Part shown: one piece after another, positions 45,987-50,334 of the stretch | Position numbering within the stretch: position 1 is the stretch's first letter | How the letters are laid out: each line of letters begins with the position of its first letter | IMG/VR virus record: IMGVR_UViG_3300047476_000704 | Coordinates: 1 to 64,000 of that record | From: a virus | Length of the DNA: 64,000 nt | Strand: one strand, 5' to 3' | The notes under the pieces: model-generated | The model's input: the letters and a program-made list of their open reading frames with translations, nothing else | The model's database searches: none | Told to the model about the DNA's origin: nothing | Position numbers and translations under genes: made by a program

Positions 45987-46000
45987 GTTTCACCATTATG

Positions 46001-46010
46001 TCAAAGAACT
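46001..46010 (-). promoter_or_regulatory. boxA-like antitermination element (second copy 48208-48217)
   Basis: Minus strand AGTTCTTTGA in both places. Confidence 0.45.
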
Positions 46011-46018
46011 TATTCTTG

Positions 46019-46090
46019 CGTTGATGGTAGGATTCGAACCTACGACCAATAGATTAACAGTCTACTGCGCTACCACTGCGCCACATCAAC
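46019..46090 (-). tRNA. tRNA-Asn(GTT)
   Basis: gtaga-ctGTTaa-tctat; G73. Confidence 0.94.
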
Positions 46091-46104
46091 TTATTTTTAA
46101 TCAT

Positions 46105-46136
46105 AAAAAAACCCCTAACTTTTTGAGTCAGGGGTT
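46105..46136 (-). terminator. Intrinsic terminator (attenuator) upstream of the tRNA array
   Basis: aacccctgact-caaaa-agttaggggtt 11-bp stem followed by a T-run; ends ~15 nt before tRNA-Asn. Confidence 0.88.
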
Positions 46137-46163
46137 GTTTTAATTTAAGTATGTAGTTTGGTC

Positions 46164-46307
46164 TTATCCCAAGTCTACATCGTTTAATATTGTTGCCCCT
46201 AACTGATTTTCAATTCCTTTCGAACTAAAATCACACACGCGATTGCCTGCCCACATCAAATTTGATGTCGGTTGATAAGCTATCGTATGCAGGTTAAGAG
46301 TTTTCAT
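46164..46307 (-). CDS. 47-aa putative leader peptide MKTLNLHTIAYQPTSNLMWAGNRVCDFSSKGIENQLGATILNDVDLG (not in ORF track)
   Basis: Translated by hand; A-rich sequence before ATG; all 20 amino acids by codon 33; carries a copy of the terminator 3' arm. Confidence 0.75.
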   Translation of the reverse strand: MKTLNLHTIAYQPTSNLMWAGNRVCDFSSKGIENQLGATILNDVDLG

Positions 46308-46350
46308 TTTCTTTTTTCTTTTAATATATATAAGTTTTTTTTATTTTAAG

Positions 46351-46911
46351 TTAAAAATCGTAATATCCTTTTACTTTTGTTATATTACAATCGCTATTCC
46401 AAGATATAATTGTTTTTACTACATCACTATCAACTCTAGGTGCTCTATGTAGAATAAAACTTGGGAATGTTAGAACATCTCCTTCTTTCACATCCATCTC
46501 AATTATTTCATCCTGATTTATTGGATTTAATAATTGTGTTTTTGGAGAACCTTCTGGTAAATCTAAATAATAAACATTAGTCCATTGGCATCCTAAATGA
46601 ACATGCCAACCATGTTCCGAACCTTTGTTGTATTGTTGAAACCAAATATTTCTTATTTTAATTTCATCATACCCAAGCTCATCAAATCTATGTTGTAATA
46701 GATTAGTTATTGGTTGCATTACTGGCTTCAAATAAAGCCGTTCAACTTCCCTACTTACATCCCAATCTGTTCTACTTATATCAGTATAATCATTTGGAAA
46801 TGTATATCTTGTAGATTCACATTCATTTATTAATTTCAATACCTCATCCTTTATTATTTCATGCTCTGGTAATTTGGAGATGATATATGGACATTGTATT
46901 GATTTAATCAT
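46351..46911 (-). CDS. 2OG-Fe(II) oxygenase-like protein
   Basis: WFQQY...HGWHVH...NVYYLD...TFPSFILH...ISWN. Confidence 0.8.
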   Translation of the reverse strand: MIKSIQCPYIISKLPEHEIIKDEVLKLINECESTRYTFPNDYTDISRTDWDVSREVERLYLKPVMQPITNLLQHRFDELGYDEIKIRNIWFQQYNKGSEHGWHVHLGCQWTNVYYLDLPEGSPKTQLLNPINQDEIIEMDVKEGDVLTFPSFILHRAPRVDSDVVKTIISWNSDCNITKVKGYYDF

Positions 46912-46922
46912 AATCTAATTTT

Positions 46923-46995
46923 TGGAGCGGAGGGATGGAATCGAACCACCTCATTGTACTGGAATGTACACATGCTACCGGAACACTTCCTCCGC
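46923..46995 (-). tRNA. Gly-type tRNA with 6-nt anticodon loop, CCA encoded
   Basis: TGTAC-ATTCCA-GTACA; G1-C72, C2-G71, U73. Confidence 0.72.
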
Positions 46996-47204
46996 TTATA
47001 ATTTAGAAAGATTTGTGGGGTGGCTCTTTCTAGTGGAACTAGCTACATTCCGTTTTTACCATTCAACTTTTATTCGTATCGTTGAAGTTATTTTATAGGT
47101 TAAACTCCCCACCTAAAAACTTGGTATTACTTTTTAATCTGATTTGTGGTTAAAGTGTAAAATCAATCTCGTTACCTTCACGCCTATTGAAAACCACTAC
47201 GAAG

Positions 47205-47275
47205 AGCGAAACAAAGGAATTGAACCCCCTCCTTCGACCTGGACGGCCGATGTGCTACCATTACACCAATCTCGC
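47205..47275 (-). tRNA. Gly-type tRNA(TCC) with G33
   Basis: TCGGC-CGTCCAG-GTCGA; U73; G-U-rich T stem. Confidence 0.72.
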
Positions 47276-47284
47276 TTATATTAT

Positions 47285-48120
47285 TACGGATGAGAATACT
47301 CACGTAAACGAACCAGCTTTTGTTGGATTATTGTTTCCCAACTTTTCCACTATCTTTTGGATAGTACCGATTCAATGCGGGTTAGTTAAGCCAACCACTC
47401 ATAAAGTTACAAACTACTCTCTCTTTACTCCGCTTCTTCTACTCTGCCGAACAGATTCACACTTGCGGTGTTAGAAGTTTTTCGAAAGAATCACAGACCT
47501 CTTGCGGAGGTATCGTGGCAGGGAACATCTCCCTACTATGTACGCACCTTTCGTTTGCAACTGGCGAACACTTTTGCTCTTTTTGTTTAAGATTTGCGTC
47601 AAATGCAAAATGAGTTTGGTTTGTAGATGGTTTCAAGTAGTGGTTCACCAACCTGCTCCGTTATCTTTTGAACAACAGAATACTGAACTACTCGATGTGT
47701 TATCCCTAACACCATACTTTAAGTCTGCTTCATAACTCCTACCTTGGTAGGTGAAGAGTAAGGATAATAACGACACCACTCGTACTTTATCTTACCTTTC
47801 GGTTTTAAGCAAACTCTAATATTGAATCACGCAATTGTTGAAAGGGATTAAGTTTCAGTTTCTCGCAATAACTCTATGGATTATTCTTATTGGTGTTCCC
47901 ACCTCAACTGAACTATCTACTTTAGCCCAGTCATTTCACCACCCTCTTTACAGTGTTACCCTCAATACTAAAGGTGAAATGATATTCCACTTGCCTACTC
48001 AAGCTCCTTTCGAAGCCGCAAATCACTTAAACCAAATGATTCACTTTATCCTACTTTCGTAGTTTATTTCACGACCATAGGCGGCCGATGTACACTATGT
48101 AGAACTAGTCTACTATGTGC
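47285..48120 (-). ncRNA. Large ornate ncRNA, GOLLD-like (~830 nt; ends approximate)
   Basis: No credible ORF, higher GC than flanks, many hairpins (three GAAA tetraloops, two CGCAA loops), embedded among tRNAs. Confidence 0.62.
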
Positions 48121-48321
48121 TAATGCTTTTAATAATAATTGAAATGTTGTACATTTTACGGGCGTCTTATTTACAATTAGTCTACTATCCCACAATTATT
48201 ATATTTCTCAAAGAACTTTTTATTTGAGTTACCGAGTATCTTTCATCACCTATTGGTCTCAAATCTATAATACAAATATACGAAACTTTTTCCATATATC
48301 AAAATTATTTTTACTTTTTTT

Positions 48322-48502
48322 TAAGATTGGTTGTCTCCGGCTTTTTAACCCCCCGCGTTTGGAAAGATATTCACACATTCGGTTTTATTAGATGTTGGCT
48401 TCAACAACCATTCTTAAATATTGGATGAGTAGTGGGATGGTATTTCTACCTCTCGGGTCCTCTTAACACCGGACTTCTCCACACCGGCATACTAACCTCA
48501 TT
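48322..48502 (-). ncRNA. One or two candidate small structured RNAs behind their own promoter (48513-48543)
   Basis: atgag/ctcat and ggttgt/acaacc closing helices; ggta-GAAA-tacc hairpin. Confidence 0.4.
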
Positions 48503-48562
48503 TTCAACATTACAAATATACGAAACTTTTTTCATATATCAAAGTCTTTTTAACTTTTTTTT

Positions 48563-48637
48563 TGGTTGCGGGAGACAGAATCGAACTATCGTAGACCTGG
48601 CTTATGAGACCGGTGGGAAACCAACATCCTCCCCGCG
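48563..48637 (-). tRNA. Initiator-type tRNA-fMet(CAT), CCA encoded
   Basis: CGCGGGG 5' end with C1:A72 mismatch; ctCATaa loop. Confidence 0.85.
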
Positions 48638-48689
48638 ATTTATTATGATACAAATATACGAAACTTTTTTCATATATCCAAATGATTTC

Positions 48690-49232
48690 TCATTTATTTT
48701 TTACGATATTAAAAAACTCAAATACATCTTCTTCTAGCATATTACTTTTTAAGTTGTTAGCTGTAAGACTTATGAATTGAATATTATCAATTGTATATGG
48801 TTTTGATGAATCAATTCTATCAATAGATGCTTTGTAATTACTTGATATGGTTTTATATTTTGGTTGATATTGTAATACTAAATCTACATTTGTAAGTTTA
48901 CATTTACCATTTTGATAATTCCATATTTCAACTAATTTATCTAAATCCAATTCATATACAAATTTAGATTTCCTAGCTCTAACTCTTTTAGCAAAATCTC
49001 GCATAGATGATTTGATTTTCTGCTCTTCTGTGATGAGTTTGTTTTCACCACCTTTGAAATGATATGGATTTGCAGATAGTTTTATCATTTCAATATTACC
49101 ATCTCTATTACCAGAACATTTTAGACTACAATAAAAATCGGTCTTTCCCAATTTTATTCTTCTGTTGTATTCGTTTTTTGGTTTTTCAAAATCAACATTA
49201 CATATTTTGCATTTTACTTTTATCGTTTTCAT
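48690..49232 (-). CDS. His-Me finger/HNH-like homing endonuclease (start reassigned to MKTIK)
   Basis: CKIC...YCSLKC; QNGKCKLTN; ASIDRIDSSKPYTIDNIQFI. Confidence 0.8.
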   Translation of the reverse strand: MKTIKVKCKICNVDFEKPKNEYNRRIKLGKTDFYCSLKCSGNRDGNIEMIKLSANPYHFKGGENKLITEEQKIKSSMRDFAKRVRARKSKFVYELDLDKLVEIWNYQNGKCKLTNVDLVLQYQPKYKTISSNYKASIDRIDSSKPYTIDNIQFISLTANNLKSNMLEEDVFEFFNIVKNK

Positions 49233-49283
49233 ATCCACTATATGTTTGTATATAAATATAGTGGAGATGAAGAAAACGAATAG

Positions 49284-49670
49284 TGGAGATGGTGGTATTC
49301 GAAACCACGTCCAGATAAGTTTCTAATGTAAATCGTTCACAAGTTTATTCAATTTTTCTAAACTGAAAAAATATAGAGTTTCTATTTTGCCATTGCCACT
49401 CTCAAATGTGGAAGATTCACTTTAATAGGTAGAACCTCAAACGAGACCTCACTTCCGTTCACTTCTTTTTAAGTCCCACGAGTGATGCGGGATTGATTAG
49501 GCAGCTACTGCGTAATCGAATGAGTTCATCCATGCCATAGCATCTTCGAACGTCATTGTAGATAATTCTACGTCTGCACTTATTGTTTGATAGGTATTCA
49601 AAGGTTTCCATCTAACCTTACTTGCATCAATACAACCAGTCTTCATACCTGTCAAAAGCCGGTCATCCCC
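49284..49670 (-). ncRNA. ssrA: tmRNA; tag (A)ADVELSTMTFEDAMAWMNSFDYAVAA
   Basis: GGGGATG/CATCTCC acceptor with G3-U70, TTGAC near 5' end, GTGGT-TTCGAAT-ACCAC T arm, ATAAGT before GCA resume codon, YAVAA-stop. Confidence 0.93.
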
Positions 49671-49734
49671 ATATTTCAAATAACTTATACAAATATACGA
49701 AACTTTTTTCGTAATTCCAAATAATATATATTAT

Positions 49735-50334
49735 TTATTCAAAGTTTAAAATAACATTACCAGCTGCTACTATTCTTTCTTTTGTAGATTTCGGTGCCAA
49801 CGATGGTAAATGGTCTAAATTTGCATCAAATACATATAGATAACCTTCTTCTGGAAAAAATGTATGTGTTATTCTGTGGTCTTTATCATCTCTAAAAAAT
49901 AACTTACCTTCTGGACCTTCACAATTATCTGGAACCTGTACATAATATACCCATGTCCAATCTGTAAATGTTTCGTAATCCGGATGAAACTTTAAATGAT
50001 TATGATAATGTGCATCTGGTAATTCGGGAACTGCTACATATATCCAAGTTCGTTGATAACCACTTAAATATTTTTCACCATCTAACTCAATGAAAAAATC
50101 TCTTACCTTATTAAAGCAGGATGAAAACATATGTCTGGTTTCATCACCACACAATGCTTGTCCATCAATTTGTAAACCAGGAGCCCTCATTTTAGTATCA
50201 TTGAAACGCTTATCAGGCATCCACATTTCTCTATCAATCTGAACTTCTTTAATAACCTTTTGATTATCAATACCACTAATAGGTATTTTATAAATCTTGT
50301 GATTTAAAAAACCAATTTCTTCGTAACTAATCAT
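49735..50334 (-). CDS. 2OG-Fe(II) oxygenase-like protein
   Basis: HYHNH, WTWVYYV, FDANLDHLP, RIVAAGN. Confidence 0.75.
   Translation of the reverse strand: MISYEEIGFLNHKIYKIPISGIDNQKVIKEVQIDREMWMPDKRFNDTKMRAPGLQIDGQALCGDETRHMFSSCFNKVRDFFIELDGEKYLSGYQRTWIYVAVPELPDAHYHNHLKFHPDYETFTDWTWVYYVQVPDNCEGPEGKLFFRDDKDHRITHTFFPEEGYLYVFDANLDHLPSLAPKSTKERIVAAGNVILNFE

What the first reader, a model, noticed from the sequence alone, without database searches (positions are those of the whole stretch)
47285..48120. ~830-nt ornate ncRNA, probably GOLLD-class
Seen: dense helices such as acc-GAAA-ggt, gcttc-GAAA-ggagc, ctac-GAAA-gtag, acctc-CGCAA-gaggt, actatc/gatagt and cctacc/ggtagg; only weak short ORFs; a host promoter and boxA-like site upstream. 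Known: GOLLD RNAs are ~800 nt, first found in lake metagenomes and phages, usually next to tRNAs, with unknown function. Inferred: GOLLD or a new large RNA class; I cannot confirm the family by eye.
Basis: partly seen in the sequence, partly recalled or inferred. Interest (0 to 1): 0.7.

Follow-up and report, generated by a model that had tools for sequence, protein, structure and literature searches.

The report
Phage GOLLD RNA with rRNA-style leader
The flagged stretch is a genuine GOLLD RNA, a known giant phage RNA that builds a 14-copy hollow cage, and it appears to be made like a ribosomal RNA: host-type promoter, hairpin and boxA anti-termination signal in front, and a tRNA-like gene at its end.

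Summary
On the minus strand, 47287-47695 matches the whole Rfam GOLLD model (293.6 bits against a cut-off of 150). That model covers only the conserved 3' half.

The 5' half (47696-48089) is homologous to the 5' domain of about 90 GOLLDs from IMG/VR phages and of env-38, the GOLLD solved by cryo-EM. The window forms 98 of 101 covariation-supported pairs. It also keeps the loop motifs that join copies in the env-38 14-mer (L20 with J13/15, L21a, L21b).

The genome is a 195-kb uncultured phage with 33% G+C, 25 tRNA genes and a tmRNA.

The added result is about how the RNA is made:
- A Bacteroidota-type promoter (TTTG-N19-TATATTTG, 48303-48273) is followed by a hairpin and the rRNA-type boxA GTTCTTTGA (48216-48208).
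- 77 of 78 related GOLLD loci carry this boxA.
- A tRNA-Gly-like gene starts 11 nt after the RNA and probably sets its 3' end through RNase P.

Transcription, Nus dependence, cage formation and function are all inferred. This scan has already noted the boxA-GOLLD link on other phage DNA. I found no paper describing it in the library I searched.

Verdict: a new member of a known family, of moderate interest.

The parts
48273..48322 (-). Promoter of the GOLLD transcript: A-rich tract (48322-48304), -33 TTTG (48303-48300), -7 box TATATTTG (48280-48273). The predicted start is near 48268.
   Evidence: One search found it as TTGATA-16-TATATT. One search shows it fits TTTG-N17-21-TAnnTTTG. The same 34-nt promoter word stands before tRNA-Leu, GOLLD, an unknown RNA, a tRNA-like RNA and the tmRNA. 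The -7 box spans -12 to -5 according to PMC9723704.
48222..48264 (-). Leader hairpin (boxB-like position), ending 5 nt before boxA.
   Evidence: Minimum-energy fold. In 55 of 78 related loci a hairpin of at least 4 bp ends within 8 nt of boxA, with different sequences.
48204..48216 (-). boxA-like element GTTCTTTGAGAAA.
   Evidence: The motif lies within 220 nt upstream of 77 of 78 unique GOLLD loci, against 0.02 expected per locus. The related 14-mer sits next to 16S rRNA genes in 42 of 124 occurrences in bacterial genomes.
48120..48203 (-). Spacer between boxA and the RNA body. It holds a degenerate second copy (48188-48168) of the hairpin word at 48116-48096. The near-identical relative L038 lacks about 72 nt here.
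   Evidence: Repeat family D7; alignments. No significant fold (z = +0.69).
48093..48119 (-). Hairpin just before the conserved core (CACATAGTAGA-CTAGT-TCTACATAGTG). Its sequence and length vary among relatives, and it lies outside the env-38 cryo-EM construct.
   Evidence: The env-38 construct starts at the equivalent of window 48089.
47696..48089 (-). GOLLD 5' domain, of the env-38 type.
   Evidence: nhmmer homology to about 90 IMG/VR loci. RNAalifold gives 101 pairs, 84 of them with compensatory changes. The window forms 98 of 101. 96.5% of cells are standard pairs, against about 38% when partners are shifted.
47287..47695 (-). GOLLD 3' domain (P13-P27), the part covered by the Rfam model.
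   Evidence: Rfam RF02032, 293.6 bits, gathering score 150, model 1-416, not truncated.
47569..47579 (-). J13/15 word GAGCAAAAGUG. Its GC (47577-47576) is the partner of the L20 loop (bridge B7 of the env-38 cage).
   Evidence: The dinucleotide covaries with the L20 loop (GC/GC, CC/GG, GA/UC) and is complementary in 72 of 72 sequences. B7 is described in PMC12286853.
47497..47511 (-). P20 hairpin ACCUC-CGCAA-GAGGU; L20 loop at 47506-47502.
47438..47471 (-). P21a (47471-47459, loop CGCAA) and P21b (47455-47438, loop CGGCA). These are the self-complementary loops of bridges B8 and B9.
   Evidence: L21a is CGCAA in 50 sequences and GUCGA in 16 of 72, which is the published GC/CG switch. L21b keeps a GC core (PMC12286853).
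47204..47275 (-). tRNA-Gly(UCC)-like gene, 11 nt after the GOLLD 3' end. Its 5' processing by RNase P would release the GOLLD 3' end.
   Evidence: ARAGORN; Rfam tRNA at only 40.7 bits. A same-strand tRNA lies within 30 nt downstream in 16 of 76 related loci.

Best explanation
The stretch is the gene for a GOLLD RNA of the env-38 ('lake') type, carried by a 195-kb uncultured phage that probably infects a member of the Bacteroidota.

Shown here: family membership, the two-domain fold with covariation, and the conserved inter-copy loop motifs.

Inferred:
1. Transcription starts near 48268 from a strong host sigma-A promoter. That promoter is one of a set of five near-identical ones that this phage places before its stable RNAs.
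2. The leader hairpin and boxA load the host's Nus factors on RNA polymerase, as on rRNA operons. The polymerase can then cross about 1 kb of untranslated RNA without Rho termination, and the complex may also help the RNA fold.
3. RNase P cuts at the 5' end of the tRNA-Gly-like gene and frees the GOLLD 3' end.
4. The roughly 800-nt core folds into a 5' cap domain and a 3' ring domain and assembles through L20-J13/15, L21a-L21a and L21b-L21b contacts into a hollow 14-mer, as solved for env-38.

What the cage does is unknown. Its place in the tRNA/tmRNA island points to translation-related cargo such as tRNAs or ribosomes.
For: GOLLD membership:
- Rfam RF02032 at 293.6 bits, full length.
- The 5' domain is homologous to about 90 phage GOLLDs.
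- 84 of 101 pairs have compensatory changes; the window forms 98 of 101; shift control 96.5% against about 38%.
- The start of the env-38 construct and two conserved words match the window's 5' domain.

Cage motifs:
- The L20 and J13/15 dinucleotides are complementary in 72 of 72 sequences, with three covarying classes.
- L21a shows the published GC/CG switch.
- P21b, which the decamer-forming S. agalactiae GOLLD lacks, is present.

Leader:
- boxA word in 77 of 78 loci, at a variable distance of -10 to 193 nt.
- A hairpin stands before it in 55 of 78 loci.
- Further copies of the word are about 20-fold enriched within 100 nt upstream of tRNA or tmRNA genes.
- The related 14-mer lies beside 16S genes in 42 of 124 genome occurrences.
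- The env-38 construct forms the cage without this word.
- A Chitinophagaceae rrn leader shows the same promoter-hairpin-boxA units.

Promoter: TAnnTTTG lies upstream of boxA in 62 of 77 loci, against 11% of random segments; this is the Bacteroidota sigma-A -7 box.

Downstream tRNA.
Against: - There are no transcript data. The start site, read-through and processing site are predictions.
- No intrinsic terminator was found on the minus strand after the RNA, so the true 3' end is unknown.
- The downstream tRNA is atypical (40.7 bits) and may be a poor RNase P substrate. Only 16 of 76 relatives have a detectable tRNA abutting the RNA.
- Cage formation rests on homology. A different GOLLD, from S. 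agalactiae, forms mainly decamers.
- boxA here is only a sequence match. Three cultured-phage GOLLDs show no such word within about 1 kb upstream.
- The host assignment rests on promoter type and one rrn leader. The nearest cultured relative by DNA polymerase is a Microcystis phage, at 49% identity.
Confidence: 0.9

Rival explanations
1. It is a GOLLD RNA, but GUUCUUUGA is part of the RNA itself rather than a Nus-factor loading site. It could be a strand that pairs with the RNA body, for example with the conserved AAUAAGAAUAAC word, or a processing signal.
For: The word is almost invariant at the 5' edge of this GOLLD subgroup. GUUCUU could form six pairs with AAGAAU in the 5' domain (sequence).
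Against: - The distance to the core varies from -10 to 193 nt.
- Four sequences have AAAAAU in place of AAGAAU with no compensating change in the motif.
- The env-38 construct lacks the word and still forms the cage.
- The same word precedes tRNA and tmRNA genes in the same phages and 16S genes in bacteria.
Confidence: 0.1
2. It is a GOLLD RNA that assembles with a different number of copies, or stays bound to its tRNA-like 3' neighbour, so the env-38 14-mer is not the right model for the working particle.
For: GOLLD copy number differs between members: 14 for env-38 and mainly 10 for the S. agalactiae 3' domain. The window has extra 5' sequence that is not in the solved construct.
Against: Both domains are homologous to env-38, and all three kissing-loop motifs and P21b are kept.
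Confidence: 0.2
3. The stretch is not a working RNA gene. It is a decaying GOLLD copy or encodes a small protein.
For: Short ORFs of up to 95 aa overlap it. An insertion of about 72 nt sits in the leader.
Against: The score is nearly twice the family cut-off. 98 of 101 pairs in the 5' domain are intact. The substitution pattern among relatives preserves base pairs. The locus has its own conserved promoter, and it is the only GOLLD in a genome rated complete.
Confidence: 0.02

Closest known systems
GOLLD env-38, the marine-metagenome GOLLD solved by cryo-EM as a 14-mer cage with D7 symmetry (Kretsch et al. 2025, PMC12286853)
   Same: Both the 5' and the 3' domain are homologous. The env-38 construct starts at the equivalent of window 48089 and shares conserved words. 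The L20-J13/15, L21a and L21b motifs and P21b are present. Size is similar: about 803 nt of core against 833 nt. Both lie next to a tRNA.
   Different: The sequence has diverged. The window's gene has a variable hairpin before the core and a leader of about 150 nt with boxA, neither of which is in the solved construct. The neighbouring tRNA is an atypical tRNA-Gly downstream, whereas env-38 lies downstream of a tRNA-Met. I could not align the two full sequences because env-38 is not available here by reference.
GOLLD RNAs of cultured phages and prophages (Rfam RF02032: Lactobacillus brevis prophage, Caulobacter phiCbK, Mycobacterium phage Bongo, Mesorhizobium phage Cp1R7A-A1, S. agalactiae)
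   Same: They share the conserved 3' domain and a position inside tRNA clusters. Bongo also has a tmRNA about 0.4 kb upstream of the GOLLD locus and a tRNA 10 nt after the RNA.
   Different: Their 5' domains differ or are shorter. Some carry a tRNA inside J13/15; the window has none. No GTTCTTTGA word lies upstream in the three I checked. The S. agalactiae 3' domain forms mainly decamers and lacks P21b.
Bacterial rRNA operon leaders (strong promoters, boxB-like hairpin, boxA; Nus factor antitermination complex)
   Same: The order is the same: promoter, hairpin, boxA, then a long untranslated structured RNA, then a tRNA. The boxA word is the same as that beside 16S genes in many phyla. A Chitinophagaceae rrn leader has the same units behind TAnnTTTG promoters.
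   Different: The cargo is a phage cage-forming RNA, not rRNA. There is a single promoter here rather than a tandem set. No boxC was looked for, and no factor binding has been shown.
ROOL RNA (the other cage-forming phage RNA)
   Same: It is a large ornate phage RNA near tRNAs that forms a hollow multimer. Some ROOL alignment rows also begin with UGUUCUUUGA.
   Different: Its sequence and fold are unrelated. No ROOL match was found in the window at Rfam thresholds.

Membership tests
GOLLD RNA (Rfam RF02032) | Match to the family covariance model above its gathering score, over the full length | tested here: met
   293.6 bits against 150, model positions 1-416, not truncated, minus strand 47287-47695.
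GOLLD RNA (Rfam RF02032) | Two-domain build: a variable 5' domain followed by the conserved 3' domain, about 800 nt in all | tested here: met
   5' domain 48089-47696 and 3' domain 47695-47287, 803 nt in all. The 5' domain has 101 consensus pairs, 84 of them covarying, and the window forms 98.
GOLLD RNA (Rfam RF02032) | Complementarity between the L20 loop and J13/15 (a published covariation; bridge B7 in the cage) | tested here: met
   GC with GC in the window. 72 of 72 sequences are complementary, in three covarying classes.
GOLLD RNA (Rfam RF02032) | Self-complementary loops L21a and L21b (bridges B8 and B9 of the env-38 type) | tested here: met
   L21a is CGCAA (GC core) and L21b is CGGCA (GC core). 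The GC/CG switch is seen across relatives.
GOLLD RNA (Rfam RF02032) | Encoded by a phage or prophage, next to tRNA genes | tested here: met
   Virus record of 194,856 bases, with 25 tRNA genes and a tmRNA within 8 kb. Phage DNA polymerase and ribonucleotide reductase are present.
GOLLD RNA (Rfam RF02032) | Assembly into a multimeric cage from RNA alone | not testable with these tools
   Inferred from homology to env-38 only.
GOLLD RNA (Rfam RF02032) | Expression rising during phage lytic growth | not testable with these tools
   No transcript data; only a predicted promoter.
rrn-type boxA antitermination leader | boxA consensus word | tested here: met
   GTTCTTTGA at 48216-48208. The 14-mer GTTCTTTGAAAACT lies in 16S leaders or 16S-23S spacers in 42 of 124 genome occurrences.
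rrn-type boxA antitermination leader | Close to the promoter, inside the transcript, preceded by a hairpin, ahead of a long untranslated RNA | tested here: met
   The -7 box ends at 48273, the hairpin is at 48264-48222 and boxA starts at 48216. The same order is seen in relatives and in a Bacteroidota rrn leader.
rrn-type boxA antitermination leader | Conserved across homologous loci beyond chance | tested here: met
   77 of 78 loci, against 0.02 expected per locus.
rrn-type boxA antitermination leader | Binds NusB-NusE and makes transcription resistant to Rho | not testable with these tools
   Needs binding and transcription assays.
ROOL RNA | Match to the Rfam ROOL model | tested here: not met
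   No ROOL match in the window at gathering scores, nor at E up to 1 in 46000-49800.

The most novel reading that the evidence does not exclude
In this large group of freshwater phages, GOLLD is built as a mimic of a host rRNA operon: host sigma-A promoter, hairpin, boxA, giant RNA, tRNA. The host Nus antitermination complex would then be needed to transcribe the RNA and perhaps to fold it into the cage as it emerges. The abutting non-decoding tRNA-Gly-like RNA would be made as a covalent appendage of the cage subunit, so the cage would work as a store or delivery vehicle for tRNA-like molecules.
Probability: 0.3. Interest if true: 0.6.

Novelty: new member of a known kind. Interest (0 to 1): 0.4.

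Why it matters
GOLLD is one of very few natural RNAs known to build a cage from RNA alone, and its function is still unknown.

This locus adds no new class. It does add an intact env-38-type member in a complete phage genome with a readable expression unit.

The rRNA-style leader is shared by 77 of 78 relatives and is absent from the papers I could search. It gives a concrete, testable handle on how such a large untranslated RNA is made in bulk: Nus-dependent, Rho-resistant transcription. It also ties GOLLD to the phage's tRNA and tmRNA programme.

The promoter type points to Bacteroidota as hosts, which helps in choosing a culturable system.

Tried and rejected
- blastn of the locus against cultured and deposited phages found only two unannotated huge-phage genomes, LR745206 and LR756502. 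There is no cultured close relative.
- The nearest cultured phage by DNA polymerase, Microcystis phage Mel-JY01, has no GOLLD.
- I tested whether the boxA word follows the host in cultured phages. Bongo, Cp1R7A-A1 and phiCbK have no boxA-like word within about 1 kb upstream, so that test gave nothing.
- Seven Bacteroidota hits of the 14-mer GTTCTTTGAAAACT were not next to rRNA. A direct look at one Chitinophagaceae 16S leader was needed instead.
- I rejected pairing of GUUCUU with the conserved AAGAAU word, because four sequences have an uncompensated change.
- The leader 48270-48122 as a whole has no significant fold (z = +0.69). The same holds for the 195-nt stretch 48512-48318 (z = -1.0).
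- Weinberg et al. 2009 (PMC4140389) is not held, so I could not check it for boxA.
- The published GOLLD alignment covers only the 3' domain, so it cannot show the leader.
I compared only short words.

Full report
**What is there**

The Rfam scan of the whole window gives one strong non-tRNA match: GOLLD (RF02032) on the minus strand at 47287-47695. It scores 293.6 bits against a gathering score of 150, with E 6e-83, covers model positions 1-416 and is not truncated (repeated). The Rfam model represents only the conserved 3' half of GOLLD.

ROOL and all other large-RNA families are silent.

Five of them fall in helices with comparative support. The sixth, cctacc/ggtagg at 47751-47738, is peculiar to this sequence; relatives keep only the word UACCAAG there.

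**The 5' half**

A blastn search of deposited phages found only two unannotated huge-phage genomes, of 634 and 642 kb. Their GOLLDs align with the window over both halves.

A degenerate 3'-domain pattern pulled 120 loci from IMG/VR. With nhmmer profiles, about 90 of them carry both a 5' and a 3' domain homologous to the window's.

I aligned 57 non-redundant 5' domains (A2):
- RNAalifold predicts 101 pairs, of which 84 have at least one compensatory double change.
- The window forms 98 of the 101 pairs.
- 96.5% of all cells are standard pairs. This falls to 37-42% when the 3' partners are slid by one to three columns.

The supplement of Kretsch et al. 2025 shows that the env-38 construct used for cryo-EM begins ATGGCCGCTATGGTCG...AAATAAATACGAAAGTAGGATAAAGTG. 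That is the window's sequence from 48089 onward with a few changes. The construct also contains the window's conserved AAGAATAAC word. The window's RNA is therefore an env-38-type GOLLD in both domains, with a core of 48089-47287 (803 nt, against 833 nt for env-38).

**Motifs that hold the cage together**

The cryo-EM paper describes a 14-mer in which the copies are joined by three kinds of contact, among others:
- a kissing contact between loop L20 and the linker J13/15 (bridge B7);
- self-complementary contacts of L21a (B8, where a GC/CG switch was the published evidence);
- self-complementary contacts of L21b (B9).

I examined these in 72 aligned 3' domains. The middle dinucleotide of L20 and a dinucleotide in the J13/15 word A-NN-AAAAGUG are Watson-Crick complementary in all 72. 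They fall into three classes: GC/GC, CC/GG and GA/UC. The window is GC/GC, at 47505-47504 and 47577-47576.

L21a is CGCAA in 50 sequences, including the window, and GUCGA in 16. L21b keeps a GC core.

P21b is present in the window. The S. agalactiae GOLLD, which forms mainly decamers, lacks it.

The linker holds no tRNA. These points make a 14-mer cage the best structural prediction, but it remains an inference from homology.

**The genome**

The window belongs to a virus record of 194,856 bases that CheckV rates as complete. It has a single GOLLD. All long ORFs lie on the minus strand and G+C is about 33%. The genes include a family B DNA polymerase, ribonucleotide reductase, two 2OG-Fe(II) oxygenases and an HNH endonuclease.

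The closest cultured phage by polymerase is Microcystis phage Mel-JY01, at 49% identity. It has no GOLLD.

GOLLD sits at the upstream end of an island of 25 tRNA genes and just downstream of a tmRNA. In close relatives the order is tmRNA, a tRNA-like RNA, an unknown stretch of about 200 nt, GOLLD, a tRNA-Gly-like gene and an odd tRNA. The HNH gene at 48690-49238 is an insertion found only in the window.

**How the RNA is probably made**

*Promoter.* A 34-nt word, TTTGGATATATGAAAAAAGTTTCGTATATTTGTA, recurs on the minus strand before tRNA-Leu, GOLLD, the unknown stretch, the tRNA-like RNA and the tmRNA. Its core TTCGTATATTTGTA occurs seven times in the window, against 0.09 expected.

The word fits the sigma-A promoter of Bacteroidota: TTTG at -33 and TAnnTTTG at -7, with the -7 box spanning -12 to -5 (PMC9723704). 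This puts the GOLLD start near 48268. TAnnTTTG lies within 130 nt upstream of the boxA word in 62 of 77 related loci, against 11% of random segments.

*Hairpin and boxA.* After the start comes a hairpin at 48264-48222. Five bases later comes GTTCTTTGAGAAA at 48216-48204. The evidence that this is a boxA signal is as follows:
- The word GTTCTT[TA][GA]A is present within 220 nt upstream of the 5' domain in 77 of 78 unique loci, where 0.02 per locus is expected. Its distance to the core varies from -10 to 193 nt.
- A hairpin of varying sequence ends within 8 nt of it in 55 of 78 loci.
- Other copies of the word in the same phage loci are about 20 times more often within 100 nt upstream of a tRNA or tmRNA gene than random positions are. 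The window's second exact GTTCTTTGA lies between tRNA-Asn and tRNA-Val.
- In bacterial genomes the 14-mer GTTCTTTGAAAACT lies in 16S leaders or 16S-23S spacers in 42 of 124 occurrences, across several phyla.
- The 16S leader of a Chitinophagaceae genome shows three tandem units of TAnnTTTG promoter, hairpin and GTTCTTTG or GATCTTTGAAA.
- The env-38 construct lacks the word yet forms the cage, so it is not part of the fold.

I therefore read it as an rRNA-type boxA that recruits the host Nus factors. Binding and function are untested.

Three cultured-phage GOLLDs with other 5' domains show no such word. The claim is therefore limited to this subgroup.

*The 3' end.* No intrinsic terminator follows the RNA on the minus strand. 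A tRNA-Gly(UCC)-like gene begins 11 nt after the last model position. In 16 of 76 related loci a same-strand tRNA, mostly tRNA-Met, lies within 30 nt. In phage Bongo a tRNA lies 10 nt downstream. RNase P cleavage of the tRNA is the likely way the 3' end is formed. This is an inference.

**What is specific to this copy**

Between boxA and the core the window carries about 72 nt that its near-identical relative L038 lacks. This includes a decayed duplicate of the hairpin just before the core. The stretch has no significant fold and lies outside the solved core, so I expect it to be neutral.

**Comparison with what is known, and novelty**

The RNA meets every sequence-level criterion of GOLLD that I could test. 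It is a new member of a known family.

The rRNA-style leader is not mentioned in the cryo-EM paper. No paper in the searchable library joins boxA and GOLLD. I could not read the original 2009 description.

This scan has noted the same boxA-GOLLD arrangement on other phage DNA. The idea of a Bacteroidota host came from those notes, and I then tested it here.

The function of the cage remains unknown. Published suggestions are enclosure of tRNAs or an association with ribosomes.

Noticed in passing
window 48570-48640 (-), with its own promoter at 48700-48642: An unannotated tRNA-like RNA: acceptor stem, T arm with a UUCGAUU loop, encoded CCA, and an anticodon loop CUCAUAA (CAU) on a stem with a bulge. 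ARAGORN and Rfam miss it. It is about 99% conserved in L038, L010 and L046.
   Followed up: partly
window 48318-48512 (-): About 195 nt with no ORF, between two copies of the stable-RNA promoter. It is 92% conserved in L010 and partly conserved in L046, L119 and L021, and about 100 nt of it are deleted in L038. The fold is not significant (z = -1.0). It may be another remodelled tRNA-like RNA with an ...CUCAUCCA end.
   Followed up: partly
window 46923-46995 (-): A tRNA-shaped gene with a 6-nt anticodon loop; ARAGORN reports a two-base anticodon. It directly follows the tRNA-Gly-like gene in L038, but about 200 nt separate the two in the window.
   Followed up: no
window 48690-49238 (-): An HNH or endonuclease VII-like ORF between the tmRNA and the tRNA-like RNA. 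It is absent at this place in all related loci fetched, so it looks like a mobile endonuclease insertion.
   Followed up: partly
window 49283-49670 (-); L248 (phage Bongo): A tmRNA gene lies within about 1.5 kb upstream of GOLLD here. A tmRNA was found in the fetched flanks of 13 of 79 related loci, and in Mycobacterium phage Bongo one ends about 0.4 kb before the GOLLD locus. The pairing of GOLLD with tmRNA recurs across distant phages.
   Followed up: partly
window 46001-46009 (-): A second exact GTTCTTTGA, between tRNA-Asn and tRNA-Val at the head of the tRNA array. It is probably a boxA for the array.
   Followed up: partly
PMC12286853, supplementary ROOL alignment (file 5): Several ROOL rows from human gut metagenomes begin with UGUUCUUUGAUAUG. 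A boxA word may therefore also head some ROOL genes.
   Followed up: no
window 47589-47607 (-), in the J13/15 linker: A small hairpin, UUUGC-AUUUGAC-GCAAA, whose stem covaries among relatives (UUUAC/GUAAA, UUUUC/GAAAA). It is probably P14 of the published structure.
   Followed up: partly
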